A DNA stretch of 64,000 nucleotides from Patescibacteria group bacterium (GCA_040384705.1 JAZKIU010000001.1:405847-469846); one strand, 5' to 3'. Shown: positions 1 to 37,969, counted from the first letter of the stretch. The notes: generated by a model not told the origin, from the sequence alone. Program-made: numbers and translations.

Positions 1-59
1 GTTCCTCCCGAGAAGAACTCAGGAGAAGGGCGGAGGAAATCGCCGCTGAAGTCTCAGCC

Positions 60-179
60 ATGTCTGATGAAGAGGTGGCCACCTACATCAAGGAGAACGG
101 CCTGGAGAAGTTCATCAATCAGGAGCATACCGATCAGCTCTTGAGGGATGCGCTGGTGACGAGGCGCAATCATCCTTAG
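60..179 (+). CDS. small hypothetical ORF (39 aa) upstream of repeat copy A
   Basis: ATG..TAG ORF found by eye; not in the 60-aa ORF track. No recognisable domain. Lies at the window edge. Confidence 0.15.
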   Translation: MSDEEVATYIKENGLEKFINQEHTDQLLRDALVTRRNHP

Positions 180-227
180 ACCAAGAGGAGCTAGGAGCCA
201 CTCGAGAGGGTGGCTTTTCCTATTGCC

Positions 228-255
228 GTTCCAACATCGTCCCAGACCCCCAGCA
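228..255 (+). repeat. cassette-boundary repeat copy A (cGTTCCAACATCGTCCCAGACCCCCAGCA)
   Basis: Direct sequence match to the family consensus. Followed by a hairpin terminator and the minus-strand alpha-CTD gene. Confidence 0.85.
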
Positions 256-303
256 CTGCTCACCTCCACTAGCGGAAGGGTGTTCGAACCTTTGTAAAAA
301 GTT

Positions 304-330
304 CACCCCGCATTATCCAAATGCGGGGTG
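304..330 (-). terminator. intrinsic terminator of the alpha-CTD-like gene
   Basis: 10-bp perfect stem (caccccgcat / atgcggggtg). It is followed on the minus strand by a T-run (rc of aaaaagtt). It lies just 3' of the stop of ORF 364..756. Confidence 0.6.
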
Positions 331-363
331 ATTAGTGGGATTGAATGTTGCAGAGGTATCGAA

Positions 364-756
364 CTAGCCGGTTCCTCCGACGACCTTCGGCTCGTAGGGA
401 AGTTCGCCGAGGTCATGGCCAATGCTGGCCAACACCTCTTTGACCTCCTGAATACCCTTACGTCCGAAGTTCGGAATTCGGAGCAAAGTCACCTCCGTCT
501 GGCGAACAAGATCACCAACGGTCTTGATGTTCTCGTTCTTGAGGCAGTTCTCAGTCCGAACAGACCATTCCAAATCGTTCAGGGGACGGTCGAGGTCGTC
601 GGTCTTTAGCGCCGGCACGTCTACCCCGCAGATCCCCATGAAGACGGAGAAGTCCTTGCCGTTGAGCTTGGACTTCACAAATGCAATAGCTTCGCAGCTG
701 CGGCACGGACGAAGTGGCGTGCAGCCCTCTTCGTGTTCACTAAACAGAGCGGTCAT
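364..756 (-). CDS. orphan RNA polymerase alpha-subunit C-terminal domain (alpha-CTD) protein with an N-terminal 4-Cys region
   Basis: The C-terminal 70 aa (DLEWSVRTENCLKNENIKTVGDLVRQTEVTLLRIPNFGRKGIQEVKEVLASIGHDLG) matches the canonical alpha-CTD (E. coli: [57 protein letters not shown]). The N-terminus has C12, C18, C21, C43. There is no alpha-NTD. Confidence 0.75.
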   Translation of the reverse strand: MTALFSEHEEGCTPLRPCRSCEAIAFVKSKLNGKDFSVFMGICGVDVPALKTDDLDRPLNDLEWSVRTENCLKNENIKTVGDLVRQTEVTLLRIPNFGRKGIQEVKEVLASIGHDLGELPYEPKVVGGTG

Positions 757-879
757 GAGATGTCCTCACATCATTGATGGGTTATAGGAACAAGGTTCTT
801 CGTACTAAATAAGCATATTAAATGGGATACGTCAAGTTTGCTACGTAAATAGCGTTCGGTCTTGTGTTGGAAATAGCTC

Positions 880-910
880 GGTTCCAACATCGTCCCAGAC
901 CCCCAGCAAT
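880..910 (+). repeat. cassette-boundary repeat copy B (GGTTCCAACATCGTCCCAGACCCCCAGCAAT)
   Basis: Exact consensus copy. It sits 34 bp upstream of ORF 944 and upstream of the divergent minus gene 364..756. Confidence 0.9.
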
Positions 911-943
911 TGAAGCCTATGGACAGGTGGTATTCTTTGTTCA

Positions 944-1495
944 ATGGAATGGCTCGCAAATTTCTTTGTAGGTATTGCGGTTTCGATTGGTAGCCTGTTT
1001 GGTGTAACCTCGACACAGGATGTCCCACCAGTACCTCCCGAAATTCAGGTTGAGGTAGAGACAACGTCCACACCAGAGCCTAAAACGAACGCAATGGTAA
1101 AAGCTCAAACATACCTGGAGACACCCACCTCTACCCAAAAAACTACTCCGACCTCGATACTTGACCCACTAATCGCAGCATCAATACAAAACAAGAAGGG
1201 CGATGATATCATTCCCGATTGTACTCACACCCCAGCCGCATGCGAGCTCAATGTGTCTAAGGAGGTTGCTCTGGAAAAAATCGCAGCCCTCAGAATTAGT
1301 AAGGGTGAGATGAAATCAGAATCAGTCGTGTTGAGGGGTGGCAGTCCCTGGGTGAGTCCTGGCGAGTGCTTCGGGAAAGGTGGCGAGCTCAATCAGTCTG
1401 GTTTTTTCTGGACTTACTGGGATATATGGGGGGTTACTCAGGTAAATGCTACGACCGGAGAGGCAGAGTTTTGTCAGCTCGAAGTGTCGTTTTAA
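944..1495 (+). CDS. hypothetical secreted protein (signal peptide, Thr/Pro-rich linker)
   Basis: ORF with a hydrophobic N-terminus (FFVGIAVSIGSLFGV). No known domain. Flanked by repeat copies B and C. Confidence 0.5.
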   Translation: MEWLANFFVGIAVSIGSLFGVTSTQDVPPVPPEIQVEVETTSTPEPKTNAMVKAQTYLETPTSTQKTTPTSILDPLIAASIQNKKGDDIIPDCTHTPAACELNVSKEVALEKIAALRISKGEMKSESVVLRGGSPWVSPGECFGKGGELNQSGFFWTYWDIWGVTQVNATTGEAEFCQLEVSF

Positions 1496-1505
1496 ATAGA
1501 CATTC

Positions 1506-1536
1506 GGTTCCAACATCGTCCCAGACCCCCAGCAAT
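1506..1536 (+). repeat. cassette-boundary repeat copy C
   Basis: Exact consensus, 10 bp after the stop of ORF 944..1495. Followed by the hairpin at 1541-1562. Confidence 0.9.
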
Positions 1537-1540
1537 TAAG

Positions 1541-1562
1541 AAGAGGCGGTTTCCCGCCTCTT
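1541..1562. terminator. hairpin (aagaggcgg tttc ccgcctctt) between convergent genes
   Basis: 9-bp perfect stem. Weak U-tracts on both strands. Lies between the 3' ends of 944..1495 (+) and 1573..1965 (-). Confidence 0.4.
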
Positions 1563-1572
1563 CGTCGCCGTA

Positions 1573-1965
1573 TCATGCAAACCCATGGAAGCGGACATCC
1601 ATGCCTAATCGAGGGGCCTCTCCTTCAGTCGGTATCCGAAGATGCTTTTGGAAGAGCTCCCGGAACTCCTCCGAAGGAACGAGCGGCGAGATGACATGCG
1701 CCGTCGTTGGAAGACACATCTCGCCGTGCACTGCCACTAAAGCGACTGTCCGGTCGCATGGACTGAAGATCTCGGCGCAACTAAGCAAGTTGTTGTAGCG
1801 CACCCTGAGCCACAACCCAGTCGCTTGCGATAAGTCGCCGGCGAGCGCCTCGAGGTTTTTCTGAAAGTGAGCAACGTACTTATCGCCACTCCCTGCCCAT
1901 GAGCACGTCATGTTGAGTAGATGCGCGACGAATCTGTCACGCGGCCGTTCGAGTGTCCTGAACAT
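1573..1965 (-). CDS. hypothetical protein (130 aa)
   Basis: ORF only. No recognisable motif. Confidence 0.35.
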   Translation of the reverse strand: MFRTLERPRDRFVAHLLNMTCSWAGSGDKYVAHFQKNLEALAGDLSQATGLWLRVRYNNLLSCAEIFSPCDRTVALVAVHGEMCLPTTAHVISPLVPSEEFRELFQKHLRIPTEGEAPRLGMDVRFHGFA

Positions 1966-2009
1966 ATCTGTCTCCGATCTGTGCCTCTAGACAGAAACCT
2001 AACATAGGT

Positions 2010-3065
2010 GTGTGGGGGCTCCAATATAGCCCGAGAATTCTTTCAGGCCCGGGCTTAAGCACAGCTTTGTGGTATAATCCGCAGCATATGGAAACCACAC
2101 CCGCTATGAATGGATCGAAGACGACTCCGAAGGATTTCTTCCTCTGGGCAGGGGCGATGGTAGCGCTCTATCTTTCCGTAATCTCGTTCATCACCCTCCT
2201 CTTCGAGTACATCAACTACACGTTCCCGGACCCTAACGCGTACGCTGGCGACCCGTACTCGAGCGCCATGCGCTTCGCGATGGCCGCGCTCATCGTGCTC
2301 GTGCCGACCACGCTCGTCCTCCTCCGTCTCATCCGGGGCACTATCATGCAGGATTCTGGCAAGGCAATGATCTGGGTGCGTCGCTGGGTCCTCCAGCTCA
2401 CGGTCTTCGTGATGACGGTCACCATCCTCATCGATCTCATCACGCTCGTGAACTACTTCCTCAATGGGGAAGTCACCACCCGCTTCATCCTGAAGATAGT
2501 CGTTGTCCTTCTCGTCGCCGGGTTCCTCTTCATGCACTTCCTTGCTGACCTCAAGGGGTACTGGATAAAGCACCCGAAGAAGGCCGACCTCATTGGCATA
2601 GCTTCCGCAGCAGTGGCCCTTGCCGCCATCGTCGCCGGCTTCTTCATCGTCGGCAGCCCGAGCGCCGCGCGCGACACACGCCTCGATATGCAGCGCGTGA
2701 ATGACCTCATGAGTATCCAAAGCCAGGTCGTGAGCTTCTACCAGCAGAAGGAGGAGCTTCCAGGAACGCTCGCTGAGCTTTCTGACCCGCTCTCGTACTT
2801 CACGCTTCCTAAGGACCCTAAGACCGGCATGGACTACACGTACGAGAAGACCGGTGCGCTCGCCTTCAAGCTTTGCGCTGGCTTCGCACGCGAAGGCAAG
2901 GATATGACGGGACGGGGCGGGTACGCAGGCGACATGGCGGTCTCCTATCCATACCCGGGTCCCGATGGCGGAATAGAGAACTGGAAGCATGGGGCGGGAA
3001 CGGTCTGCTTCGACCGCACCATCGACCCAGAGCGCTATCCTGTATTCGAGAAGCCGCTACGATAA
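2010..3065 (+). CDS. hypothetical polytopic membrane protein (start uncertain, possibly about 2089)
   Basis: Several hydrophobic helices in the N-terminal 220 aa and a soluble C-terminal domain. The opposite-strand ORF 2055..2990 is an Arg/Glu-rich shadow. Confidence 0.5.
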   Translation: MWGLQYSPRILSGPGLSTALWYNPQHMETTPAMNGSKTTPKDFFLWAGAMVALYLSVISFITLLFEYINYTFPDPNAYAGDPYSSAMRFAMAALIVLVPTTLVLLRLIRGTIMQDSGKAMIWVRRWVLQLTVFVMTVTILIDLITLVNYFLNGEVTTRFILKIVVVLLVAGFLFMHFLADLKGYWIKHPKKADLIGIASAAVALAAIVAGFFIVGSPSAARDTRLDMQRVNDLMSIQSQVVSFYQQKEELPGTLAELSDPLSYFTLPKDPKTGMDYTYEKTGALAFKLCAGFAREGKDMTGRGGYAGDMAVSYPYPGPDGGIENWKHGAGTVCFDRTIDPERYPVFEKPLR

Positions 3066-10886: not shown

Positions 10887-11666
10887 ATGGAGTTCAAGAA
10901 ATACAATCCTAACCGCAGTCCTGATTGGAACTATGGCGGCAGCAAATGGCGCCTCTCGCGCTCGAAGATAGAGCTTTTCAATGAATGCCCCCGCTGCTTC
11001 TATCTCGATAATAAGCTGGGTACCAAGCGTCCGCAGGGTCCAGCGTTCACGCTCAACATCGCCGTCGATGCTCTCCTGAAGAAGGAGTTCGATGCGCATA
11101 GGGTGGCTGCCACGACGCATCCACTCATGAAGCAGTACGGCATCGACGCGGTGCCGCTCGTGCATAAGAATATGAATACGTGGCGTGAGAACTTCGAGGG
11201 AGTCGAGTTCTTCCATGAGTCCACCGGCTTCACCATCTCGGGCGCGGTGGACGATATCTGGGTAAATCCTGCGGGAGAGCTCATCGTCGTGGACTATAAG
11301 GCGACATCGAAGAACGGGACGATCGTATCGCTCTCTGATTCCTCGTGGGAAGGCTCCTATAAGCGGCAGATGGGCGTGTACCAGTGGCTGCTGCGTAATA
11401 ACGGCTTCACGGTCTCTCCTATGGGCTATTTCGTATACGCAAATGCGAGCTCCGACGGCGAGGCATTCGATGGGAAGCTCGAGTTCGAGGTCACGGTCGT
11501 GCCCTGCGAGGGCGACACGGATTGGATAGACGCTATCCTCCCGAGGATAAAGGAGGCGCTCGATAGCGATGCTATCCCGCCCACCGGAACGGCTTGTGAG
11601 TACTGCCCGTACCGGGAAGCCGCAGGGAAGAAGCTCCAGGCATTGCATAAGGCAGCTAAGAAATAG
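10887..11666 (+). CDS. PD-(D/E)xK nuclease, Cas4/RecB-like, with Cys cluster (CPRC ... C ... CEYC)
   Basis: VVDYKAT is motif III (D/E)xK. QMGVY is a QhxxY motif. CPRCFY at the N-terminus and CEYCPY at the C-terminus suggest an Fe-S-type cluster as in Cas4/AddB. No CRISPR array nearby. Confidence 0.55.
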   Translation: MEFKKYNPNRSPDWNYGGSKWRLSRSKIELFNECPRCFYLDNKLGTKRPQGPAFTLNIAVDALLKKEFDAHRVAATTHPLMKQYGIDAVPLVHKNMNTWRENFEGVEFFHESTGFTISGAVDDIWVNPAGELIVVDYKATSKNGTIVSLSDSSWEGSYKRQMGVYQWLLRNNGFTVSPMGYFVYANASSDGEAFDGKLEFEVTVVPCEGDTDWIDAILPRIKEALDSDAIPPTGTACEYCPYREAAGKKLQALHKAAKK

Positions 11667-12056: not shown

Positions 12057-12725
12057 ATGAGTGTGCAGATAGAGGCTTCGTGGAGGAAAAATCTCGAAGA
12101 AGAGTTCGGCAAGGACTATTTCAATGAGCTCACCGCCTTCGTAAAGAAGGAATATGCGGAAGGTACGGTGTACCCGCACCCGAAGAACATCTTCAAGGCG
12201 TTCGAGCTCACTCCTTTCGATAAGGTAAAAGTGGTCATTCTCGGCCAAGACCCATATCACGGGCAAGGACAGGCAATAGGGCTATCGTTCGCAGTGAAGG
12301 AGGGGGTGCGCAACCCTCCATCGCTCCAGAACATATTCAAGGAGATAGAGGCGGATCTAGGACAGAAGCCTCATGTCGAGAACGGTGACCTCACCCGCTG
12401 GGCGGAGCAGGGCGTACTCCTCCTTAACGCAACGCTTACGGTGCGCGGAGGCATCGCTGGCTCGCATCAAGGGCGTGGGTGGGAATTGTTCACCGATGCA
12501 GTCATCAAGACGCTCTCGGACGAGCGTGAGCATCTGGTTTTCATACTCTGGGGCAACTATGCGAAGCAGAAGGGGGCGCACATAGACCGCAGCAAGCATC
12601 TCGTCATCGAGTCGGCGCATCCGTCGCCATTCTCGGCAGCTAATGGGTTCTTCGGGAGCAGGCCGTTCACCAGGGCGAATGGGTACCTTGAGTCTCAGGG
12701 TGAGAAGGCGATAGATTGGCGATAG
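12057..12725 (+). CDS. ung: uracil-DNA glycosylase (family 1)
   Basis: Carries the GQDPYH water-activating motif and the HPSPFS leucine-loop motif. Length about 222 aa. The TAG stop at 12723-12725 is the first 3 nt of the anchor repeat. Confidence 0.9.
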   Translation: MSVQIEASWRKNLEEEFGKDYFNELTAFVKKEYAEGTVYPHPKNIFKAFELTPFDKVKVVILGQDPYHGQGQAIGLSFAVKEGVRNPPSLQNIFKEIEADLGQKPHVENGDLTRWAEQGVLLLNATLTVRGGIAGSHQGRGWELFTDAVIKTLSDEREHLVFILWGNYAKQKGAHIDRSKHLVIESAHPSPFSAANGFFGSRPFTRANGYLESQGEKAIDWR

Positions 12726-12750
12726 GTTCGATACCTAGTCTGCCAGCAAT
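12723..12750 (+). repeat. anchor repeat 1 (TAGGTTCGATACCTAGTCTGCCAGCAAT), diverged member of the cassette-boundary family
   Basis: Its first 25 nt are identical to 18659-18683. It shares GGTTC...CCAGCAAT(A)AAA ends with the 30-bp family. It overlaps the ung stop codon. Confidence 0.8.
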
Positions 12751-12783
12751 ATAAAAATCTAGCCCCGCTATTGGATAGCAGGG

Positions 12784-13032
12784 CTAGGGAATAACGATGC
12801 AATCAAAGGTACCGCAGAGTTGGCACTTCTCGCAGACTAGGTAGCTATACGCTTCAGGCTGATCTCCTGTTAATCGCCACTGCCAGAAGATTCCTCCGCA
12901 ACGCCGGTGTTCGCGTCGGAGTCGCACCCACCACGAACGATCGCCATCAAAGTAGTTGCACAGACCCAATTCAACAACGTCGTCGGCTGAAGGGTCCCAT
13001 CGAGTGGAATCAGGCATTCGATCCTCCTTCAA
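12784..13032 (-). CDS. hypothetical Cys-rich small protein (82 aa, putative zinc ribbon)
   Basis: CNYF...C..C...CEKCQLCGTFDC pattern. Lies between the anchor and repeat copy D. Confidence 0.3.
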   Translation of the reverse strand: MKEDRMPDSTRWDPSADDVVELGLCNYFDGDRSWWVRLRREHRRCGGIFWQWRLTGDQPEAYSYLVCEKCQLCGTFDCIVIP

Positions 13033-13063
13033 TCCGGTTAGAGGCTAGCATGCTATGAAGTCT

Positions 13064-13094
13064 GTCTCCAACATCGTCCCAGACCTCCAGCAAT
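13064..13094 (+). repeat. cassette-boundary repeat copy D (GTCTCCAACATCGTCCCAGACCTCCAGCAAT)
   Basis: 29/31 match to consensus. 29 bp beyond the 5' end of the minus gene 12784..13032. Confidence 0.85.
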
Positions 13095-13104
13095 AAAATA
13101 GTCA

Positions 13105-13129
13105 GCCCCGCATCATCGTTGTGCGGGGC
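13105..13129 (-). terminator. intrinsic terminator of 13144..13551
   Basis: gccccgca / tgcggggc stem. On the minus strand it is followed by a T-rich run (rc of caataaaatagtc). Confidence 0.55.
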
Positions 13130-13143
13130 GTTGTCAAGCGTGC

Positions 13144-13551
13144 TCACCTAAGTGCGGCCTTAATTTTCTTCAGCCACGTCGGGCTGTTGTGCTTACTAAG
13201 TTTGTGAGAGCAACCATTTCGGAGAAGTAGCTTCTCCATACGATCATCCGTGGTCGCTGCAAACATCGGACCAGTAAAGCCGGCGGTCCTGAAGTCCGCA
13301 ACGATCTTTTCCGTCGTTGGCTCAGGATCTGTCGAAGACAGATTTCCATCGAAGATTATGGCCACGATGCTTTGGCGATTCGTCTTGAAATAATGCCGAG
13401 CTGCCCTGGAGCAGTCAGCAAAAATCACATCGAACTCTTCGCCCAGAACCTCTCGATACTTGTTCAACTGAAAGGAACTGTCCTCAATAGCAAGGATTGA
13501 ATCCATAGAACCCTCCAATGTTCTTTCGAGACAACTATACCATGTATCCAA
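13144..13551 (-). CDS. response-regulator receiver-domain-like protein (stand-alone, 135 aa)
   Basis: ILAIEDS...DVIFADC...IVAIIFDGNL...K pattern is compatible with a CheY-like fold. No output domain. Confidence 0.45.
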   Translation of the reverse strand: MDTWYSCLERTLEGSMDSILAIEDSSFQLNKYREVLGEEFDVIFADCSRAARHYFKTNRQSIVAIIFDGNLSSTDPEPTTEKIVADFRTAGFTGPMFAATTDDRMEKLLLRNGCSHKLSKHNSPTWLKKIKAALR

Positions 13552-13580
13552 TTTTTGTCAGTCTCATGCTCGAGATCAGA

Positions 13581-13611
13581 GTTCCAACATCGCCCCAGAC
13601 CCCCAGCTAAT
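13581..13611 (+). repeat. cassette-boundary repeat copy E (GTTCCAACATCGCCCCAGACCCCCAGCTAAT)
   Basis: Near-consensus. 28 bp from the 5' end of the minus gene 13144..13551. Confidence 0.85.
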
Positions 13612-13726
13612 GGAAATACGAAACGAGGAGAGTAGCGTGCCCTTAGCATCAAGACAATGAAAGTATTGACATTTCTATCTGAAATGCTATTATACTGCAC
13701 AGGTTTGAAAACAAGGAAACTGGTCC

Positions 13727-14221
13727 ATGCGTCAGGTAGTCGTAATCGCTGCACTGTCACTGCTGGCCGCTGCTTGCGGCGACGACCCAAGTTCGAAATC
13801 TCCAGCTCCACAGTCGGGAGCTGAACTGCTCGACATCAGTCTGCCGCGCACACCAGCGGCTGATGCCAAAGAGAACGATGCTGTTGCTGAACTTCAGATT
13901 CGGATCGGCACGAGCTACCAAGGCACCACCTACAGCTGTCAGTACGTCGACGAGGGTGTCGCCCTGCTGCGCGGTAGGGACGGTACGCTGTACCGCATCA
14001 AGAGTACCGAATTCGAGCGCTTCGGCAAAAGTTCCCGTCGCTACAAGAGCTACACGCTCGAGCCCTGGTGGGGAAGCGACACTGAACTCAGACTGTCGAC
14101 CGAGGAAACGGATGCGCTGCGGTGGAACAACTTCACCGGCGTGCTATGTCCCGAGGATGGCGAAAAATACGATCGCGCATGGCGGACCTACCGCTTCCGA
14201 GATCTCAATCGCCTCCCGTAA
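13727..14221 (+). CDS. hypothetical lipoprotein (164 aa)
   Basis: Signal peptide with a lipobox (LLAAACGDD). Confidence 0.5.
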   Translation: MRQVVVIAALSLLAAACGDDPSSKSPAPQSGAELLDISLPRTPAADAKENDAVAELQIRIGTSYQGTTYSCQYVDEGVALLRGRDGTLYRIKSTEFERFGKSSRRYKSYTLEPWWGSDTELRLSTEETDALRWNNFTGVLCPEDGEKYDRAWRTYRFRDLNRLP

Positions 14222-14239
14222 CTCATCGTCTTTTCGACT

Positions 14240-14274
14240 GGGCGCCGCACAATCTGCGGCGCCCCTCTTTTATT
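14240..14274 (+). terminator. intrinsic terminator after lipoprotein gene
   Basis: gggcgccgca caatc tgcggcgccc followed by ctcttttatt. Confidence 0.65.
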
Positions 14275-14309
14275 AGGGGAGACTCATGGAGAGTAAGTCA
14301 CACTAGCCC

Positions 14310-14339
14310 GGTCCAATCTCGCCCCAGGCCCCCAGCTAA
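14310..14339 (+). repeat. cassette-boundary repeat copy F (degenerate: GGTCCAATCTCGCCCCAGGCCCCCAGCTAA)
   Basis: About 22/30 match. Same position logic as other copies (between cassettes). Confidence 0.6.
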
Positions 14340-14385
14340 CTTTAGGCGGTTCTGGGTAGCGCTGGTACTGGGTTCACGTGTCGGC

Positions 14386-16377
14386 TTACCACACCATCTC
14401 GCGGTCCTTCGGCGCACGGTACATCTTATCGCTCTTCTTAACCTCATATGCCTCATAGAAGGCATCGAAGTTCGAGACCGGGCCATTGATGCGGAACTTG
14501 CCCGGAGCATGCGGGTCTGTGAGTACCTGCATCTTCTCGTATTCTGGGCGCACATTCTCGCGCTCGAAGAGGGCGAAGCCAAGGAAGAAGCGCTGCTCCG
14601 GTGTATACCCGCCGACATCCTTGCGGCCCGTGCGTGCGAGCTGGAGCTGGTACGCGTCGTATGCGATAGAGATGCCTCCGAGGTCAGCGATATTCTCGCC
14701 TAGAGTGAGCTTGCCGTTCACTTTCACGCCGTCGGCCACGACATACTTATCGAACTGCTTGCGTACCTTCTCGGCCTTCGCTTCGAAGCGCTTGCGGTCA
14801 GTCGCGGTCCACCAGCTCTTCAGGTTGCCCTTGGCGTCGTATTGCGAACCCTCGTCATCGAATCCGTGGGTTATCTCATGCCCTATGACTGTGCCTATCG
14901 CGCCATAATTAAGGGCATCATCCGCGGACATATCGAAGAAGGGAGCCTGGAGGATTCCAGCGGGGAACACTATGTCGTTCAGGTTCGGCGAGAAGTATGC
15001 ATTCACGGTCTGCGGATACATGTGCCACTCCGTTCGGTCGATGGGTCCATTGAGCTTCTTTATCTCCCGCTTATGCTCGAACTCGTTTGAGCGCAGTACA
15101 TTTCCTACATAGTCATCGCTCGTTATCGCGAGACCTTTGTACGATTTCCATTTGTCCGGGTACCCTATCTTGCGATTGAGCGCAGCAAGCTTCTTGAGCG
15201 CCTTCTTCTTCGTGGGAGGCGTCATCCAATCGAGGGACTTGAGCCTCGCTTCGTATGCGGTGAAGAGATCCTCTACCAAGATGCCCATCTTCTTCTTTGC
15301 CTCCGCAGGAAAATACTTCTTTACATAGATCTGGCCCAGAAGCTCTCCTACATGCCCGTTGACGTTCCCCAGCACGCGCCTCCAGAGCGGCTTCATCTGC
15401 TTCGTGCCGGTGAGCGCGGTTCCGTAGAAGGAGAAGCTCTGCTTCACGAATGCGTTCGAGAGAAGGCCGGCGAAATCATTCACCAGGTGCCATTCCGTAT
15501 ACGTCTTGAGGTCTTCAAGAGCTGCGCTAGCAAGGAGTTTCGATACTGCCTTCAGGAAGTCCGGCTGCATGACTATCACCTCCTTCACCTCCGCGCCTTG
15601 CTGAGTGAAATACCGCTTCCAATCGAGTTCGGGCGAGAGCTTCATGAGCCCTGCTACGGTCATCTTGTGATAGGTCTTCTCGGGATCTCGGCGGTCCTCT
15701 TTCTTCATGGAAGCCTTCGCGAGCGCTGTCTCTACGCGCATGAGCGTTTCCGTCGCGGCTTTCGCTTCAGCTGGTGTGCGGCCCATAAGACGGAACAATG
15801 CCGCGGCATGCTTTAGGTATGCGGAACGTACCCGCACCGACTCCGCATCATCCTTCAAATAGTAGTCCCGGTCAGGCATGCCGAGCCCATCCTGCGCCAT
15901 GTGCAAGATATACCGCTCGCTGTTCTTCGAGTCCTGGCCGATTCCCGAGCCGAAGAATACGCCTACACCGATGCGATGCAGCTCTCCGATAAGGCCCTTG
16001 AGCGCCGTTGTGTCCTTCGCATTCGTTATCTTCTTGCGGAGCGCGTCCAGGGGCTTTATGCCGAGTTCGTTCCGGCGCTTCATATCCATGCCGGAGCGCT
16101 GGAAGTCCCGGATTATCTGCTCCGGGCTACCCTTGGGAAGCGAGCGCTTGCTCTCGAGCTCAGTGAGGATGTCCCGGAGCTGGTGATCGGTCTTGTAGCG
16201 AAGCTCATTGAATGAGCCCCATCTCGATTCTGCAGGTGGAATGGGATGCGCCTTCATCCATCCCCCGTTCGCATGATGGAAGAAGTCATCCTGCGGACGA
16301 ACCTTCATATCCATACCTTTCGTATCGAACCCCCATCCTTTTTTAGTCATATCAGCGATTATATCCGAATTGAGCAC
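14386..16377 (-). CDS. pepO: M13 family zinc metalloendopeptidase (PepO/neprilysin-like)
   Basis: 663 aa. HEITHGFDD (HExxH), GENIADLGG and NAYY motifs typical of peptidase M13. Confidence 0.9.
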   Translation of the reverse strand: MLNSDIIADMTKKGWGFDTKGMDMKVRPQDDFFHHANGGWMKAHPIPPAESRWGSFNELRYKTDHQLRDILTELESKRSLPKGSPEQIIRDFQRSGMDMKRRNELGIKPLDALRKKITNAKDTTALKGLIGELHRIGVGVFFGSGIGQDSKNSERYILHMAQDGLGMPDRDYYLKDDAESVRVRSAYLKHAAALFRLMGRTPAEAKAATETLMRVETALAKASMKKEDRRDPEKTYHKMTVAGLMKLSPELDWKRYFTQQGAEVKEVIVMQPDFLKAVSKLLASAALEDLKTYTEWHLVNDFAGLLSNAFVKQSFSFYGTALTGTKQMKPLWRRVLGNVNGHVGELLGQIYVKKYFPAEAKKKMGILVEDLFTAYEARLKSLDWMTPPTKKKALKKLAALNRKIGYPDKWKSYKGLAITSDDYVGNVLRSNEFEHKREIKKLNGPIDRTEWHMYPQTVNAYFSPNLNDIVFPAGILQAPFFDMSADDALNYGAIGTVIGHEITHGFDDEGSQYDAKGNLKSWWTATDRKRFEAKAEKVRKQFDKYVVADGVKVNGKLTLGENIADLGGISIAYDAYQLQLARTGRKDVGGYTPEQRFFLGFALFERENVRPEYEKMQVLTDPHAPGKFRINGPVSNFDAFYEAYEVKKSDKMYRAPKDREMVW

Positions 16378-16424
16378 GGCAACCTACCGGGATTATTGAC
16401 AGACTACAAATAGTATGTATACTC

Positions 16425-16676
16425 TTGTCTAGGAAGAACGCTTGCGACTGCATGCATCAGGGGAGCCTCATGAAAGGCGTACGACTCACGACGAGCGAGG
16501 AAAGCCGGCTTCGGCGGGAACTCCATCAACTCGAGAACGAACCATGGCGTTGGCCGAGCGAGAAGGACCAGAAGAAGATTCCTGACCGCATCGCCACCGT
16601 CAAAGGCCAACTTCAGCGCAACCACACCGCGCAGATGCGCGACCAGCAGAAAGGACGGCATCAGCGCGTCCGATAA
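16425..16676 (+). CDS. hypothetical small basic protein
   Basis: ORF only (start may be 16452 or later). Confidence 0.25.
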   Translation: MSRKNACDCMHQGSLMKGVRLTTSEESRLRRELHQLENEPWRWPSEKDQKKIPDRIATVKGQLQRNHTAQMRDQQKGRHQRVR

Positions 16677-16711
16677 GTCCCGAAGGAGTCCCTCCGCTCG
16701 GGGCTTCTTCA

Positions 16712-16730
16712 TATCACTGCGTCTGTGATA
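16712..16730 (+). promoter_or_regulatory. palindrome TATCAC-N7-GTGATA immediately upstream of alaS start
   Basis: Perfect 6-bp inverted arms ending 12 bp before the alaS ATG. AlaRS is known to autoregulate via palindromic operators in E. coli. Confidence 0.3.
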
Positions 16731-16741
16731 TCTTCATATTT

Positions 16742-18661
16742 ATGACCGTTTCAGAAGTACGCAAGCGTTTCCTCGACTTCTATGCCGCTCGCGGGCATAC
16801 CGTCATCCCTTCTGCCCCTATCGTGCCCGGGAACGACCCGACCACGCTCTTCACGTCGTCCGGCATGCAGCCGCTCGTTCCGTACCTGCTCGGAAAGGAC
16901 CATCCGTCAGGTAACCGGCTGGTGAACTCGCAGATGAGCTTCCGTGCGGGCGATATAGAAGAAGTGGGGGATAACCGTCACACGACGTTCTTCGAGATGC
17001 TCGGGAACTGGTCGCTTGGCGACTATTTCAAGGCAGAGCAGCTTCCGTGGGTGTTCGAATACCTCACGAGCGAAAGCGAAGGCCTCGGCCTCGATCCCTC
17101 AAAGCTGTATGTCACGGTATTCGCGGGCGACGAGACGACGAAGATGGATGCGGACATGGAGGCAGTCGGCATATGGACCGAACTGTTCAAGAGCAAGGGC
17201 GTCCATGCGGAGTTCGCGAACATCGGCTCGGAAGCGGATGGATACGAGCATGGCATGAACGGCAACGAGCGCATCTTCGCGTATGACGCCAAGAAGAACT
17301 GGTGGAGCCGTGCGGGCGTGCCTTCCAATATGCCAGTGGGTGAGCCGGGCGGCCCCGATTCCGAGGTCTTCTATGACTTCGGCCTTCCGCATGACACGAA
17401 GTGGGGTCCTAAGTGCCACCCGAACTGCGATTGCGGCCGGTTCGTCGAGATAGGGAACTCGGTGTTCATGCAGTTCGTGAAGAGCGAGGATGGTAGCTTC
17501 CCCGAGCTCCCCAAGCGCAACGTCGACTTCGGCGGAGGTCTCGAGCGTCTTACCTTCGCAACCATCGGTATACCCGACGCCTTTCTTATAGACGTGTTCG
17601 CTGCTCCTCTTTCAATACTTGAGACGCGTTCAGGAAAGAAGTATGGAGATGATGAAGCGACTACCCGTGCCTTCCGCATCATCCTCGACCACATGCGCGC
17701 TGCAGCGTTCATGCTCGCGGAGAGCGTCGTTCCTTCGAACACCGAAGCGGGGTATGTGCTTCGCCGTCTCATCCGCCGCTCGATACGCGAAGCGGATAGG
17801 CTCGGCATCAAGGATGCGGTGCTTGCTGATGTGGCTAAGGGATACGGCGAGGTTTACGCCGACCACTATCCGCACGTGCTCGCGGCAGCTAGCAAGATCC
17901 ACGATGAGCTCGCGCAAGAGGAGGAACGTTTCCGTAAGACCCTTACGCAGGGGCTCAAGGAATTCGAGAAGCTCGCCGGCAAGCGCGAAGTGAGCGCCGA
18001 CGATGCCTTCGTCCTCTTTACTACCTACGGCTTCCCCATAGAGCTCACCGCGGAGCTTGCGCAGGAACGCGGTATCGCGCTCGATATGGATGCGGTCGGA
18101 GCGAAGATGAAAGAGCACCAGGATACCTCACGCGCAGGAGGCGCGCAGCGCTTCGCAGGAGGCCTAGCTGATCATGCGGAACAGACGGTGCGGTATCACA
18201 CGACGCACCACATCCTCCTTAAGGCGCTCCAGATGGTGCTCGGGACGGAGGTGAAGCAGAGGGGCTCCAATATCACTTCGGAGCGGTTGCGCATCGACTT
18301 CGCGTCGCCCGGGAAGATGACGGACGAGCAGAAGGCGGAAGTAGAGAAGATTGTGAACGACATCATCTATCAGGACCTTCCGGTGTCGCGCACCACGATG
18401 GCACGAGAGGAGGCGGAGAAGCTCGGTGCAGAGATGGAATTCGGCGTGAAGTATCCGGATATGGTGACGGTGTATTCAGTTGGACCGGCCACTGCTACTG
18501 AGGAGAACCCTGATATCCCGAACGCATTCTCGCTCGAGTTCTGCGGCGGTCCGCATGTGAACAATACGAGCGAGATACACGAAGGAGGAAAGAAGTTCAA
18601 GATACAGAAGGAAGAGGCGGTGGCGGCTGGTATTCGCCGTATAAAGGCGGTGTTGGTGTAG
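16742..18661 (+). CDS. alaS: alanyl-tRNA synthetase, short form lacking C-terminal C-Ala/DHHA1 domain
   Basis: Class II catalytic core and editing domain (HxxxH...CGGPH) present. Ends at GIRRIKAVLV, which corresponds to about residue 700 of E. coli AlaRS. The TAG stop at 18659-18661 is the first 3 nt of anchor repeat 2. Confidence 0.85.
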   Translation: MTVSEVRKRFLDFYAARGHTVIPSAPIVPGNDPTTLFTSSGMQPLVPYLLGKDHPSGNRLVNSQMSFRAGDIEEVGDNRHTTFFEMLGNWSLGDYFKAEQLPWVFEYLTSESEGLGLDPSKLYVTVFAGDETTKMDADMEAVGIWTELFKSKGVHAEFANIGSEADGYEHGMNGNERIFAYDAKKNWWSRAGVPSNMPVGEPGGPDSEVFYDFGLPHDTKWGPKCHPNCDCGRFVEIGNSVFMQFVKSEDGSFPELPKRNVDFGGGLERLTFATIGIPDAFLIDVFAAPLSILETRSGKKYGDDEATTRAFRIILDHMRAAAFMLAESVVPSNTEAGYVLRRLIRRSIREADRLGIKDAVLADVAKGYGEVYADHYPHVLAAASKIHDELAQEEERFRKTLTQGLKEFEKLAGKREVSADDAFVLFTTYGFPIELTAELAQERGIALDMDAVGAKMKEHQDTSRAGGAQRFAGGLADHAEQTVRYHTTHHILLKALQMVLGTEVKQRGSNITSERLRIDFASPGKMTDEQKAEVEKIVNDIIYQDLPVSRTTMAREEAEKLGAEMEFGVKYPDMVTVYSVGPATATEENPDIPNAFSLEFCGGPHVNNTSEIHEGGKKFKIQKEEAVAAGIRRIKAVLV

Positions 18662-18687
18662 GTTCGATACCTAGTCTGCCAGCCAAT
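18659..18687 (+). repeat. anchor repeat 2 (TAGGTTCGATACCTAGTCTGCCAGCCAAT)
   Basis: First 25 nt identical to 12723-12747. Overlaps the alaS stop codon. Upstream similarity extends about 8 more nt (TTGGYG.TAGG). Confidence 0.8.
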
Positions 18688-18910
18688 CAAAGTATGCAAA
18701 AAAAAGGCCGCTCACTGCCTTTCCAACCACGCTTACCACGGGTCAGTCGGCATAAAATCGGGCGTTGAGTACAAGAGACGATGCGCGCAAACGCCTCCCC
18801 GATGTGAGCGACCTAGAGCAAACTCCTTGCTTTGAAACCGAAGTCTCGCACTACGGACCCTGCTCCAAGGGTACCGGGAGCTGCATAAAGACTAGCCTAG
18901 TTCTAAAGAA

Positions 18911-18938
18911 GTTCCAACATCGTCTCAAACCCCAGTAA
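18911..18938 (+). repeat. cassette-boundary repeat copy G (GTTCCAACATCGTCTCAAACCCCAGTAAT)
   Basis: About 24/29 match to consensus. Confidence 0.7.
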
Positions 18939-18949
18939 TAAAACAAAAA

Positions 18950-18986
18950 GCCGCCCAACAAAGTCAGGCGACTTTCGTTAGGCGGC
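18950..18986 (-). terminator. long imperfect hairpin + T-run, terminator of minus small genes
   Basis: gccgcc caacaaagtc aggc gactttcgtt aggcggc. On the minus strand it is followed by ctttttgtttt. Confidence 0.5.
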
Positions 18987-18996
18987 AGGCTATTGT

Positions 18997-19197
18997 CTAG
19001 TTACCGCGATCGGGCTTCGTTCGCCAATCATCCTGATGGCGTGACATTTCGGCCGTGCGTTCACCGTGTCGTCTGCGCTGTTCATAGGAATCGTTGATTG
19101 TGTGATCGAACGCACCTTGTCGCGACATTTCCGCCATCTGTTCGCCGGCATGCTGTCTTGCGCGACGATCTTCTTCATCTCTCCAGTGTCGAGGCAT
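18997..19197 (-). CDS. hypothetical small highly charged protein (66 aa; alternative overlapping frame 18990..19178)
   Basis: Repeated AEMSR motif. Two overlapping frames, so which is real is unclear. Confidence 0.25.
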   Translation of the reverse strand: MPRHWRDEEDRRARQHAGEQMAEMSRQGAFDHTINDSYEQRRRHGERTAEMSRHQDDWRTKPDRGN

Positions 19198-19251
19198 TAC
19201 GTTTCTCCTTCGGGGTTCGAGTCTGGACAGAACCTATCACGATTGGATAAG

Positions 19252-19279
19252 GGTTCCAACATCGTCCCAGCCCCCAGTC
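19252..19279 (+). repeat. cassette-boundary repeat copy H (GGTTCCAACATCGTCCCAGCCCCCAGTCA)
   Basis: About 25/28 match. Followed by hairpin agccg..cggct + gtttt. Confidence 0.8.
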
Positions 19280-19296
19280 ACGCTCAGACAAAAAGA

Positions 19297-19320
19297 AGCC
19301 GCCCTGAGGACGGCTGTTTT
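19297..19320. terminator. hairpin with U-tracts on both strands (bidirectional terminator)
   Basis: agccg ccctgagga cggct gtttt on the plus strand. The minus strand has tctttttgtct after the stem. It lies 3' of minus gene 19340..19669. Confidence 0.5.
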
Positions 19321-19339
19321 GATCACGAGGGATCGAGTA

Positions 19340-19669
19340 TCAGGGCGGACTGAGGTGGGATTTCTCCCGGTAGTAGCGGGCCAGGGAAACTCCCTTCCAT
19401 CCGTACGGCGTGTAGCCGAGGAGATCGCCGATGGGGTAGTAGTGAAGGCTGCCGACGGGATAATCCACAAGGTAGGACTCTATTCCTTCCATGCAGTGCT
19501 CGACGATGTACCACACCCACCAGACGCGAACGACTTTGCCGTCGCGCTCGCCGAGAGCCCTGGGCATCCAGGCGAATTCATAGTTCTTGCCTCGTTCCAG
19601 CGGTTCGGCTGGGCGAGAGGGACGTATATTAATCTTCATCGTCACACTTCCTTTGTTCGATACCGCCAC
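19340..19669 (-). CDS. hypothetical protein (about 100 aa)
   Basis: ORF only. Confidence 0.35.
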   Translation of the reverse strand: MAVSNKGSVTMKINIRPSRPAEPLERGKNYEFAWMPRALGERDGKVVRVWWVWYIVEHCMEGIESYLVDYPVGSLHYYPIGDLLGYTPYGWKGVSLARYYREKSHLSPP

Positions 19670-19714
19670 GTCCTGTGGCAGAACTCTAGACAGAAGCTAG
19701 CATATGTTGCAGGG

Positions 19715-19745
19715 GGGTTCCAACATAGTCCCAAACTATCCACCA
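19715..19745 (+). repeat. cassette-boundary repeat copy I (degenerate: GGTTCCAACATAGTCCCAAACTATCCACCAT)
   Basis: First 20 nt near-consensus, 3' half diverged. 43 bp upstream of ORF 19788. Confidence 0.6.
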
Positions 19746-19787
19746 TAAAGTATGGAATCCCCAATTTGCTAATATGAGAATAAGCCC

Positions 19788-34445: not shown

Positions 34446-34508
34446 TTTTGGAGATTTAATTTTATAGACACTTTCTAAAAATAAGATATATTCATTAATA
34501 ATCTAGTA

Positions 34509-35630: not shown

Positions 35631-35633
35631 CTT

Positions 35634-36716: not shown

Positions 36717-37368
36717 TTTCATTATCAGTAACGAGTATTGGAATACGGGGGAGACCGTTGAATATTTTGGAACCAAGCCTCCTGATCCACGAATCGTTAA
36801 ACGAGCGAAAGCATTGCTATTAGCGAATCCCGGTATAGCGTTGCGGGCACTTGATCTTGGCTGTGGAGGTGGAAGGCATACACGTATGCTGCGAGATCTT
36901 GGATTTGATGTAGATGCCTGTGATGTAAATCCAGCAATGCTTGAGGCAACGCGATCCATCGCGCCTGAACTCGCTGGACAGGTTGTGGAGGCATCCATAT
37001 TGTCATTGCCATACGCAGACCGAACATTCGACATGATAGTTTCAACGGGTGTGCTGCATCAAGTGTATTCCATAGAGGAGTATGGTCGAGCAACTAAAGA
37101 AATAGCACGCGTCATGAAGCCTGGTGCGATATTTTGCATGAACGTTTTCACCTCCAAGACTATCGATTCTAGACTGCAGAAAATGCGGACTGACGAGCCG
37201 GTCTACCTGACCAATGAGGGATTGCCTATGACGTTATTGAGCAGCACCGAAGTGTGTGAGCTACTGGAGCGACAAGGTATTAGGCTTGAAGGAAAGCCAG
37301 AAGAATCCGATAAGCAAGAACCCACTGGAATCCGCACTGTGTTCCGAGCTATCTTTAAACGAGATTAG
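36709..37368 (+). CDS. class I SAM-dependent methyltransferase
   Basis: Motif I ALDLGCGGGRHT. Motif post-I DVDACD. MTase fold length. Confidence 0.7.
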   Translation: MDNFIISNEYWNTGETVEYFGTKPPDPRIVKRAKALLLANPGIALRALDLGCGGGRHTRMLRDLGFDVDACDVNPAMLEATRSIAPELAGQVVEASILSLPYADRTFDMIVSTGVLHQVYSIEEYGRATKEIARVMKPGAIFCMNVFTSKTIDSRLQKMRTDEPVYLTNEGLPMTLLSSTEVCELLERQGIRLEGKPEESDKQEPTGIRTVFRAIFKRD

Positions 37369-37910: not shown

Positions 37911-37969
37911 GCTATAATAATAGCAGACGATAGCAGTTCGTCACAACACCATGTGGATGGAGCACGGAA

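What the first reader, a model, noticed from the sequence alone, without database searches (positions are those of the whole stretch)
12723..18687. Identical 25-nt anchor repeats fused to the TAG stop codons of ung and alaS
TAGGTTCGATACCTAGTCTGCCAGC occurs twice (12723-12747 and 18659-18683) as direct repeats. In both cases the TAG is the stop codon of an unrelated housekeeping gene, ung at the first site and alaS at the second. Each copy is followed by a cassette array. The anchor shares its 5' GGTTC and 3' CCAGCAAT(A)AAA with the 30-bp family, so it looks like an attI-like primary site. It contains a T-loop-like GGTTCGATACC, and the second copy has CCA. This resembles a tRNA 3' half used as an integration target, although no complete tRNA can be folded. 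The AlaRS ORF terminates exactly here at GIRRIKAVLV, so it lacks the about 170-aa C-Ala/DHHA1 domain. That means either the gene 3' end was remodelled by the insertion or this lineage has a natural short AlaRS.
Basis: seen in the sequence. Interest (0 to 1): 0.72.

Follow-up and report, generated by a model that had tools for sequence, protein, structure and literature searches.

The report
tRNA-mimic docking sites for gene cassettes
The repeated 25-mer after ung and alaS copies the 3' end of a tRNA-Gln gene and most likely serves as the chromosomal docking site where a serine-recombinase family, common in these tiny CPR bacteria, stacks small gene cassettes, much as an integron does but with different enzymes and sites.

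Summary
TAGGTTCGATACCTAGTCTGCCAGC occurs twice and only twice. Each TAG is the stop codon of ung or alaS, and each copy heads an array of 30-nt repeats (S).

The anchor (A) matches the last ~25 nt of real tRNA-Gln genes in relatives, but it is not a tRNA.

In related Paceibacteria genomes:
- Orphan A sites sit at the ends of many different genes, several per genome.
- Same-strand S arrays follow them.
- The cassettes differ between genomes.

A large serine recombinase (LSR) family links the two sites:
- In integrated LSR+Rep elements, the LSR gene's 3' end overlaps a tRNA-Gln 3' end or an orphan A, and S lies at the far end.
- In a 5.7-kb circular form, the same gene end overlaps S.

So S is an attP-type site and A an attB/attL-type site. 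From GGTTC to the shared CA is 19 nt in A and 24 nt in S, which fits the 20- and 25-bp half-sites of serine integrases.

The short AlaRS (639 aa) is normal for the clade, so the insertion did not truncate it.

The window itself has no recombinase. Catalysis, mobilisation of cassettes in trans, and how orphan anchors reach stop codons are all inferred or unknown.

I rate it a new variant of a known kind.

The parts
12057..12725 (+). ung (uracil-DNA glycosylase). Its TAG stop (12723-12725) overlaps the first base of the anchor.
   Evidence: Pfam UDG. An identical 222-aa product is called on a public contig. The C-terminus ...IDWR* is the same in relative L002, which has no anchor.
12725..12750 (+). 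Anchor A1. The attB-type half-site GGTTCGATACCTAGTCTGC spans 12725-12743, the proposed crossover dinucleotide CA is 12744-12745, and GCAAT follows.
   Evidence: It matches the 3' end of real tRNA-Gln genes. The same site type overlaps LSR gene ends in L119, L155 and L158.
12746..13089 (.). Cassette 1 of the ung array. It holds an 82-aa ORF (12784-13032, minus strand) and a minus-strand terminator at 12787-12759, and ends with repeat S (13064-13094, + strand).
   Evidence: No Pfam hit.
13090..13605 (.). Cassette 2 of the ung array. It holds a 135-aa ORF (13144-13551, minus strand) with its own promoter-like site, and ends with S (13579-13612, + strand).
13606..14334 (.). Cassette 3 of the ung array. 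It holds a 164-aa ORF (13727-14221, + strand) that looks like a lipoprotein, with promoter- and terminator-like sites. It ends with a degenerate S (14310-14342, + strand).
14386..16377 (-). M13 peptidase gene, the host gene on the far side of the ung array. In L002 and L006 it lies 9 nt and 1 nt from ung's TAG.
16742..18661 (+). alaS, a 639-aa form natural to this clade. Its TAG stop (18659-18661) overlaps the first base of the anchor.
   Evidence: Pfam tRNA-synt_2c plus tRNA_SAD. Homologues are uniformly ~639 aa.
18661..18687 (+). Anchor A2. The half-site GGTTCGATACCTAGTCTGC spans 18661-18679, CA is 18680-18681, and GCCAATC follows, resembling the G-CCA end of a real tRNA-Gln.
18682..19745 (.). 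The alaS array of three units, bounded by S at 18910-18937, 19251-19282 and 19714-19747 (all + strand). ORFs lie at 18997-19197 (minus, 66 aa) and 19340-19669 (minus, 109 aa), with minus-strand terminators just right of the first two S sites. The last S loses similarity right after ...CCA.
1..2047 (.). A third array of the same family, with S at 227-257, 879-913, 1505-1539 and a degenerate one at 2016-2047 (all + strand). Its anchor would lie upstream of the window. ORFs are 3-179 (+, partial), 364-756 (minus, RNA polymerase alpha-CTD domain), 944-1495 (+) and 1573-1965 (minus).

Best explanation
The anchor (A) and the 30-nt repeat (S) are the two attachment-site types of a family of large serine recombinase (LSR) elements. 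These elements also carry a rolling-circle Rep gene and are common in Paceibacteria (CPR).

S is the attP-type site. It has a 25-bp left half-site, GGTTCCAACATCGTCCCAGACnn(C), then a CA crossover, then GCAA.

A is the attB/attL-type site. It has a 20-bp left half-site, GGTTCGAT(A/C)CCTAGTCTG(C), then the same CA-GCA core. This half-site copies the T-arm and acceptor 3' strand of tRNA-Gln.

Proposed mechanism: circular DNA carrying an S site recombines with a chromosomal A site.
- A stays next to the host gene.
- The incoming DNA lands immediately after A.
- The incoming S ends up on the far side.
Repeating this gives A-c1-S-c2-S-...-S(terminal), like an integron array built at attI.

The window holds three such arrays and no recombinase, so its single-gene cassettes would be moved in trans.

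Shown: the sites, their geometry, their physical overlap with LSR genes in integrated and circular forms, and turnover of cassettes between genomes.

Inferred: that the LSR catalyses the events, that the crossover is at CA, that insertion is serial at A, and that cassettes without an LSR are mobilised in trans.

Unknown: how orphan A half-sites came to lie exactly at stop codons.
For: (1) A is a tRNA-Gln 3' end.
- A genome-wide pattern scan gave 27 loci. Five are real tRNA-Gln genes ending CTAGGTTCGATCCCTAGTCTGGCAGCCA.
- The other 22 are orphan sites; apart from one in a Planctomicrobium-labelled MAG (L021), they are in MAGs labelled Parcubacteria/Paceibacterota/Patescibacteria, Saccharibacteria or unclassified bacterium.
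- Of the 22, 12 directly follow the stop codon of an ORF of 220 or more codons, and 17 have same-strand S repeats downstream.
- Several orphan sites occur per genome.

(2) LSR link.
- In the S-based metagenome scan, five loci carry one LSR family (Resolvase + Recombinase + Zn_ribbon_recom). In every case the LSR is on the minus strand, to the left of S on the plus strand.
- L155: the LSR stop codon lies inside a real tRNA-Gln(CUG) 3' end, and S sites begin about 4.3 kb away.
- L158 and L119: the LSR stop lies inside an orphan A, followed by Rep and then 6 (L119) to 12 or more (L158) S sites.

(3) S is attP.
- Protein P0135's element assembles in 13 samples. The six contigs read have 55- or 30-nt terminal overlaps, and two of them were confirmed as circular permutations of one 5,696-bp circle.
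- In that circle, GGTTCCAACATCGTCCCAGACTGC-CA-CCAGCTC overlaps the LSR 3' end. L199 shows the same arrangement.
- Independently, 11 of 120 LSR homologues end ...LL(A/G)VWDDVGT..., which is the antisense of S. About 40 end ML(G/A/R)(D/E)*, where the stop comes from the CTAG of A or tRNA-Gln.

(4) Geometry. From GG to CA is 19 nt in A and 24 nt in S. With one base of the crossover this gives 20- and 25-bp half-sites. In serine integrases the zinc-ribbon-domain motif is shifted 5 bp toward the centre in attB relative to a 25-bp attP half-site (PMC3783163).

(5) Junction. Terminal S sites of arrays lose similarity right after ...CCA. 15 of 30 terminal sites lack CAGC, against 31 of 147 internal sites (Fisher p = 0.002).

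(6) Dynamics.
- L002 and L006 have empty ung sites, and L003 and L006 have empty alaS sites.
- Orthologous anchors carry unrelated cassettes.
- One cassette family is shared between arrays at different host genes.
- L117 against L038 differ by one internal unit between two S sites.

(7) Scale. 293 S hits in 140 loci (including a few MTase false positives), always co-oriented within an array, with median spacing 530 bp.
Against: - No LSR lies in the 64-kb window or in most array loci, and there are no LSR remnants in the arrays. The link to the window's arrays therefore rests on shared sites alone.
- Canonical serine integrases do not re-use attL as an attB and do not recombine attP with attP. 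Serial insertion at A and S-by-S unit loss would need relaxed right half-sites or another process such as homologous recombination.
- The right half-sites are barely conserved beyond GCAA.
- The variable dinucleotide before CCA differs between A (TG) and the window's S sites (CC). I therefore placed the crossover at CA by inference only.
- The 20-bp B half-site is not present at the empty ung site of L002. Simple integration at a native pseudo-site therefore cannot explain how the anchor got there.
Confidence: 0.72

Rival explanations
1. Tyrosine-integrase genomic islands of the tycheposon or tRNA-island type. The anchor would be a leftover partial tRNA from integrations by a tyrosine recombinase, and S the repeated att core of those elements.
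For: The anchor is a partial tRNA-Gln. Tandem accumulation with partial-tRNA repeats is what tycheposon islands show (bioRxiv 10.1101/2020.12.28.424599).
Against: - No Phage_integrase-family gene appears in any locus with precomputed Pfam annotation.
- A motif screen of 490 flanking proteins found no tyrosine-recombinase signature.
- Every recombinase found next to A or S is an LSR whose ORF overlaps the site.
- The internal repeats are not partial tRNAs but a site 5 nt longer, as expected for serine-integrase attP.
Confidence: 0.06
2. Classical or divergent integron. The anchor would be attI, S would be attC, and cassettes would be moved by an IntI encoded elsewhere.
For: The architecture fits: one primary site, then co-oriented short repeats separating mostly single-gene, promoter-poor cassettes with a median of 530 bp.
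Against: - S is about 30-35 nt and not palindromic. Neither strand folds better than shuffles, with z from -0.95 to +1.09.
- No IntI was found near any anchor.
- There are several anchors per genome, each at a housekeeping gene end.
- The sites overlap LSR genes.
Confidence: 0.02
3. The anchor is mainly an RNA-level element. It would be a tRNA-like minihelix, terminator or processing signal at the 3' end of the ung and alaS mRNAs, and the arrays would be incidental.
For: It sits exactly at stop codons, or directly after terminator T-runs (L008, L158). It contains a T-arm-like hairpin, TAGGT/ACCTA. Upstream bases can extend the helix.
Against: - Fold energies are not significant, with z of -1.6 and -0.7.
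- No tRNA-model hit was found.
- Relatives lack it at the same genes without compensation.
- It is usually followed by S arrays (17 of 22 orphan sites).
- LSR ORFs terminate inside it.
A secondary RNA role is not excluded.
Confidence: 0.05
4. The arrays are graveyards. Each unit would be the decayed remnant of a full LSR element that once integrated, not a cassette that can move.
For: - Cassette left ends begin GCAA(T). In intact elements the corresponding sequence is the antisense of the last LSR codons (...LL/ML).
- Full LSR elements do sit first in some arrays (L119, L155, L158).
Against: - No LSR or Rep fragments are detectable in the window or in most arrays by tblastn.
- Units are uniformly small (middle half 408-679 bp) and mostly hold a single ORF, several with a terminator- or promoter-like site.
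- S sites stay near-identical across genomes whose AlaRS is only ~80% identical.
- Related cassettes occur in arrays at different genes.
Confidence: 0.12

Closest known systems
Serine-integrase (large serine recombinase) attP/attB systems, e.g. Listeria phage A118/LI, phiC31, Bxb1
   Same: - The recombinase has Resolvase, Recombinase and zinc-ribbon domains.
- attP lies at the integrase gene in the circular form.
- Integrated copies show hybrid junctions.
- The attP-type half-site is 25 bp and the attB-type 20 bp, with the distal motif shifted by 5 bp.
   Different: - The target is a tRNA 3' end or an orphan copy of it, not a unique gene site.
- There are many docking sites per genome.
- Tandem arrays contain many attP-type sites, which canonical directionality rules do not predict.
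- Right half-sites are almost unconserved.
- Most units lack the integrase.
Tycheposons and their genomic islands (Prochlorococcus)
   Same: - Elements integrate at tRNA 3' ends.
- Successive integrations push older ones outward.
- Cargo accumulates next to the tRNA.
- A minority of the integrase-carrying elements found in that study (27 of 937, tycheposons and cryptic elements together) carry an LSR instead of a tyrosine recombinase.
- An integrase sits at one end with a small replication module.
   Different: - Here the enzyme family is LSR plus a rolling-circle Rep.
- The internal repeats are attP-type sites rather than partial tRNAs.
- Units are single-gene cassettes of about 0.5 kb.
- Most docking sites are orphan tRNA-like half-sites fused to stop codons of protein genes, not tRNA genes.
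SCCmec / Enterococcus cassette chromosome (CcrAB)
   Same: LSR-driven elements insert at the 3' end of a housekeeping gene, with att repeats flanking elements of variable cargo. Some carry a rolling-circle rep gene (PMC6222049).
   Different: - SCC uses one fixed site in rlmH with core TATCATAA.
- SCC uses a CcrA/CcrB pair.
- SCC elements are tens of kb.
- Here the same tRNA-like site is found at many different genes, and units are tiny.
Integrons (IntI, attI, attC)
   Same: It works alike at the level of architecture. One primary site stays put, and co-oriented cassettes, each carrying the recombination site at its distal end, are stacked behind it. Content turns over fast.
   Different: The enzyme class is different (serine rather than tyrosine). 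The sites are double-stranded-type and do not fold. No adjacent integrase or Pc promoter was identified next to any anchor (a promoter was not searched for specifically). There are multiple platforms per genome.

Membership tests
Large serine recombinase att-site system | A recombinase with Resolvase catalytic domain, Recombinase domain and zinc ribbon | tested here: met
   Met in related loci L119, L125 and L146 and in L155-L158 and L193-L199. Not present in the window itself.
Large serine recombinase att-site system | attP lies on the circular or excised element, and attL/attR hybrids flank the integrated element | tested here: met
   The 5,696-bp circle has an S-type site overlapping the LSR 3' end. 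Integrated copies have A or tRNA-Gln at the LSR end and S at the far end.
Large serine recombinase att-site system | The attP half-site is about 25 bp, and the attB half-site has the distal (ZD) motif 5 bp closer to the centre | tested here: met
   From GGTTC to CA is 24 nt in S and 19 nt in A. The rule is taken from PMC3783163.
Large serine recombinase att-site system | A shared non-palindromic central dinucleotide at which strands are exchanged | tested here: inconclusive
   CA is common to tRNA-Gln, A, S, attL and attP. Terminal sites diverge right after it. The L038/L117 comparison only limits the crossover to within S.
Large serine recombinase att-site system | The recombinase catalyses attP x attB recombination | not testable with these tools
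   Needs a biochemical or genetic assay.
Integron | An IntI tyrosine recombinase gene next to attI | tested here: not met
   ung, alaS and other housekeeping genes flank the anchors. No integrase appears in the Pfam scans or precomputed annotations.
Integron | attC sites are imperfect palindromes that fold as single strands | tested here: not met
   S with its flanks folds no better than shuffles on either strand, and no common structure appears.
tRNA or tmRNA gene | A complete cloverleaf recognised by ARAGORN or the Rfam tRNA model | tested here: not met
   Only the 3' ~25 nt match tRNA-Gln.
Tycheposon | A tycheposon-lineage tyrosine recombinase, with partial-tRNA repeats at the junctions | tested here: not met
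   No tyrosine recombinase was found. Internal junctions are S sites, not partial tRNAs. Integration at a tRNA 3' end and tandem stacking are shared.
SCC/ECC cassette chromosome | CcrAB or CcrC recombinases and an attB in the 3' end of rlmH with core TATCATAA | tested here: not met
   The site sequence is different and the host genes are many.
   Relatives are 635-645 aa. L003 and L006, which lack the anchor, end at the same residue.

The most novel reading that the evidence does not exclude
CPR bacteria of the Paceibacteria group run an integron-like gene-capture system built on a large serine recombinase.
- Orphan 20-bp tRNA-Gln-mimic half-sites are planted at the very ends of several housekeeping genes per genome and act as permanent docking sites.
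- Recombinase-less single-gene cassettes, each carrying a 25-bp attP-type half-site, are inserted and removed in trans.
- The attL junction stays competent for further insertion, which departs from the strict attP x attB directionality of known serine integrases.
Probability: 0.4. Interest if true: 0.82.

Novelty: new variant of a known kind. Interest (0 to 1): 0.7.

Why it matters
CPR/Patescibacteria have tiny genomes, and how they gain and lose genes is poorly understood. A compact cassette system with several platforms per genome and fast turnover would be a major source of their strain-level variation. One circular element carries a Shedu-type nuclease domain, so some cargo may be defence-related.

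For recombinase biology, it offers three things:
- a natural serine-integrase family that targets tRNA 3' ends;
- matched attB/attP half-sites that can be read directly from genomes;
- possibly a relaxation of directionality that allows serial insertion.
These are of interest for genome engineering.

In practice, the repeated anchor breaks assemblies. Two public contigs end exactly at it. These arrays are therefore probably under-represented in MAGs.

Tried and rejected
- Integron attC reading: rejected because there are no hairpins and no IntI.
- Complete tRNA, tmRNA or tRNA-like RNA at the anchors: no model hit.
- AlaRS truncation: rejected.
- Variable dinucleotide at S positions 23-24 as the crossover: dropped, because A (TG) and the window's S sites (CC) differ there.
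- S antisense supplying a -35 box for minus-strand cassette genes: the consensus scan did not support it. The one clear promoter lies outside S.
- Viral-contig scan for S: all 34 hits were a phage C5-methyltransferase coding sequence, as were 5 metagenome hits. These are false positives.
- Viral-contig search for the LSR: only one distant relative.
- Search for LSR remnants inside arrays: none.
- Look-up of the window's AlaRS and of a cassette protein to extend the window: not on record.
- Clean target-site duplication or an empty-site match at the right end of the ung array: none found.
- Literature searches for an existing description (integron or cassettes in Patescibacteria; CPR hypervariable repeats; LSR with tRNA and cassette arrays): nothing matching.

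Full report
**1. The observation**

TAGGTTCGATACCTAGTCTGCCAGC occurs at 12723-12747 and 18659-18683 on the + strand. No other copy appears even with three mismatches, and none in 100 shuffles.

The first TAG closes a UDG-family ORF. The second closes a class II alanyl-tRNA synthetase ORF of 639 aa.

A ~30-nt repeat, consensus A.AAAGGTTCCAACATCGTCCCAGACnSCCAGCAA and here called S, follows each anchor on the same strand three times. A third array of four S copies lies at the start of the window. The anchor (A) and S share GGTTC on the left and CCAGCAA on the right.

**2. The organism and AlaRS**

DUF5671 and the names attached to AlaRS homologues place the window in Paceibacteria/Parcubacteria (CPR).

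The 120 best AlaRS homologues (79-92% identical) are almost all 635-645 aa and lack a C-Ala domain. Relatives with no anchor end at the same residue: L003 ...KAVLV-TAA and L006 ...KAVLL-TAA. The short AlaRS is a lineage trait, not a result of the insertion.

Ung likewise ends ...IDWR* in the window and in L002, which has no anchor.

**3. Presence and absence in relatives**

- L002 (AlaRS 92% identical): ung's TAG is followed after 9 nt by the stop of the convergent M13 peptidase gene. There is no anchor and no array, yet its alaS ends TAG plus anchor, and the contig stops there.
- L003: TAG-TTCGATACCTAGTCTGCCAGCAAT after ung with five S sites, but alaS ends TAA with no anchor.
- L006: both sites are empty, but the anchor follows the TAG of yceG/mltG, with an array.

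The anchor plus array is therefore a variable insertion found at several gene ends.

**4. What the anchor is**

Scanning one genome per species for TTCGATMCCTAGTCTGSCAG gave 27 loci.

- Five are real tRNA-Gln genes, whose 3' ends read CTAGG-TTCGATC-CCTAG-TCTGGCA-G-CCA.
- The other 22 are orphan copies (TCTGCCAGCAA). Apart from one in a Planctomicrobium-labelled MAG (L021), they are in MAGs labelled Parcubacteria/Paceibacterota/Patescibacteria, Saccharibacteria or unclassified bacterium.
- Of the 22, 12 directly follow the stop codon of an ORF of 220 or more codons. Others follow a terminator T-run.
- 17 of the 22 have S repeats downstream on the same strand, and none has S upstream.
- Several genomes hold three orphan anchors.

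A therefore copies tRNA-Gln from the T-stem to the discriminator. It is not a tRNA and does not fold significantly.

**5. The repeat family**

With the other loci this gives 293 S hits in 140 loci (five loci are methyltransferase false positives, section 11). Sites are always co-oriented within an array. The median spacing is 530 bp, and the middle half of spacings falls between 408 and 679 bp.

Orthologous anchors at ung, alaS, yceG and a fourth gene carry unrelated cassettes in different genomes. One cassette family occurs in arrays at two different host genes. L117 and L038 share both flanks of an S site but differ by one internal unit.

**6. The recombinase**

Clustering the proteins near the arrays showed one large serine recombinase family in five S-scan loci. 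In every case the LSR is on the minus strand, to the left of S on the plus strand. Pfam finds Resolvase, Recombinase and Zn_ribbon_recom, with a rolling-circle Rep (REP_ORF2-G2P/RepSA) next to it.

- L119: a tRNA-Gln is followed after 13 nt by an orphan A. That A's CTAG supplies the LSR stop codon. About 7 kb further on lies an S, then more cassettes.
- L155: the LSR stop codon lies inside a real tRNA-Gln(CUG), and S sites start about 4.3 kb away.
- L158: an orphan A overlaps the LSR stop, followed by 12 or more S sites.
- L156: a related LSR abuts a tRNA-Trp.

The family has 2,528 members at E ≤ 1e-40 among the candidates scored.

**7. S is attP**

I predicted that an LSR ORF running through S would read ...LL(A/G)VWDDVGT. 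Eleven of 120 homologues end that way. About 40 end ML(G/A/R)(D/E)*, the form expected at tRNA-Gln or A. Many others read into the antisense of other tRNA T-arms, giving DLDSNQD...SYH, ESNP or FEPR.

One VWDDVGT protein, P0135, lies on a contig assembled in 13 samples. The six contigs read are 5,751 or 5,726 nt with 55- or 30-nt terminal overlaps, and the gene sits at different positions in them. Two were confirmed as exact circular permutations of one 5,696-bp circle. The circle carries Rep, the LSR and a SduA_C-domain gene. In it, GGTTCCAACATCGTCCCAGACTGC-CA-CCAGCTC overlaps the LSR 3' end. L199 shows the same arrangement.

**8. Geometry**

Aligned on the shared CA, the distance from GG to CA is 19 nt in A, in tRNA-Gln and in attL. 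It is 24 nt in S and in attP.

Serine integrases contact a 25-bp attP half-site. In attB the zinc-ribbon motif lies 5 bp closer to the centre (PMC3783163). The two sites fit this rule exactly. The distal motif would be GGTTC and the proximal motif CC(C/T)AG(A/T)C.

Terminal S sites of arrays keep similarity through ...CCA and then diverge. 15 of 30 terminal sites lack CAGC, against 31 of 147 internal sites (p = 0.002). This is what a P-CA-B' junction would look like, while internal sites look like P-CA-P'.

**9. Model**

A chromosomal A recombines with an S on circular DNA.
- A stays at the gene end.
- The insert lands right behind A.
- The insert's S ends up distal.

Repetition builds the arrays. 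The window's three arrays contain no LSR and no LSR remnants. Their cassettes are small and mostly hold a single ORF, and several carry a terminator- or promoter-like site. They would therefore have to be moved in trans.

Several steps are inferred rather than shown: catalysis by the LSR, the CA crossover, and re-use of the attL junction. Re-use of attL runs against canonical serine-integrase directionality.

**10. What remains unexplained**

The 20-bp B half-site is absent from empty sites. Plain integration into native sequence therefore cannot have created the orphan anchors.

Three observations bear on their origin:
- Their left edge falls at the stop codon (TAG, once TAA) or at the end of a terminator.
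- The A/C variant of the anchor is mostly uniform within a genome.
- Junctions at the same gene differ by small indels: TAGG, TAG-, TAAG and TAGAAG.

Possible routes include microhomology-mediated events at TA(G) or trimming of spacer DNA in these compact genomes. None was tested.

**11. False positives and literature**

The 22-nt left part of S is identical to the antisense of a phage C5-methyltransferase coding stretch (VWDDVGT). All 34 viral hits and 5 metagenome hits fall there and are unrelated to the arrays.

Full-text searches found no description of this system. The nearest relatives in concept are serine-integrase att systems, tycheposon islands, SCC/ECC elements and integrons.

Noticed in passing
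window 1-2047: A third array of the same S repeats (227, 879, 1505, and a degenerate one at 2016) starts before the window. Its anchor and host gene must lie upstream and could not be retrieved.
   Followed up: partly
window 364-756 (-): One cassette encodes a 130-aa protein that is essentially a stand-alone RNA polymerase alpha C-terminal domain (PF03118, E = 1e-20). This is an odd cargo for a mobile cassette.
   Followed up: no
L159-L191 (viral contigs); L053, L072, L089, L109, L130: The 22-nt left half of S (AGGTTCCAACATCGTCCCAGAC) is identical to the antisense of a stretch near the 5' end of a phage C5-cytosine methyltransferase gene (..VVWDDVGTFDGRPW..PCQPFS) in high-GC phages. It is in the same frame an LSR ORF reads through S. 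It could be chance or shared origin; this is unresolved.
   Followed up: partly
L001 end (5683); L002/L033 end: Two independent public contigs end 23 nt after the stop codon, inside the anchor. The repeated 25-mer breaks short-read assemblies, so these arrays are probably under-represented in MAGs.
   Followed up: partly
L193-L198: A 5,696-bp circular element was recovered from 13 assemblies. It carries a rolling-circle Rep, the LSR, a 526-aa unknown protein and a 404-aa protein with a Shedu SduA_C nuclease domain, which may be anti-phage cargo.
   Followed up: partly
L119 108-121; L155 ~11449-11461; L158; proteins P0121-P0240: The host-side site supplies the LSR stop codon (the CTAG of the tRNA-Gln T-stem). 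The protein's C-terminal tail therefore differs between the integrated form (...MLGD*) and the circular form (...LLAVWDDVGT...). This could be a built-in switch.
   Followed up: partly
L156/L157 ~11452-11523: A related LSR plus Rep element is integrated at the 3' end of a tRNA-Trp with no S repeats nearby. It lies on the same 267-kb contig that carries an orphan-anchor array (L023). The LSR family therefore has sub-lineages with other tRNA targets.
   Followed up: no
L119 8-121: This tRNA-Gln has an unusual T-loop (ATCGTAC) and a 3' end ...CCCAGCAAC with no encoded CCA. A second, orphan anchor follows 13 nt later, giving two docking-type sites in tandem.
   Followed up: no
window 34000-44000: This stretch has lower GC (47-53% against ~58%). 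It encodes a PrnB-like protein, a GHMP-kinase-like protein, a methyltransferase, a Ham1-family protein and a SET-domain protein. It may be an acquired island, and no S or A sites lie in it.
   Followed up: no
window 46390-47074: An ORF starting with an HTH_23 domain (212 aa as listed) runs into the start of the only tRNA gene in the window, tRNA-Tyr at 46991-47074. Similar HTH proteins recur near arrays in other loci (L036, L043, L077, L139).
   Followed up: no
L021 5060-5079: One exact anchor match lies in a MAG labelled Planctomicrobium, with no S repeats nearby. It could be binning contamination or chance.
   Followed up: no
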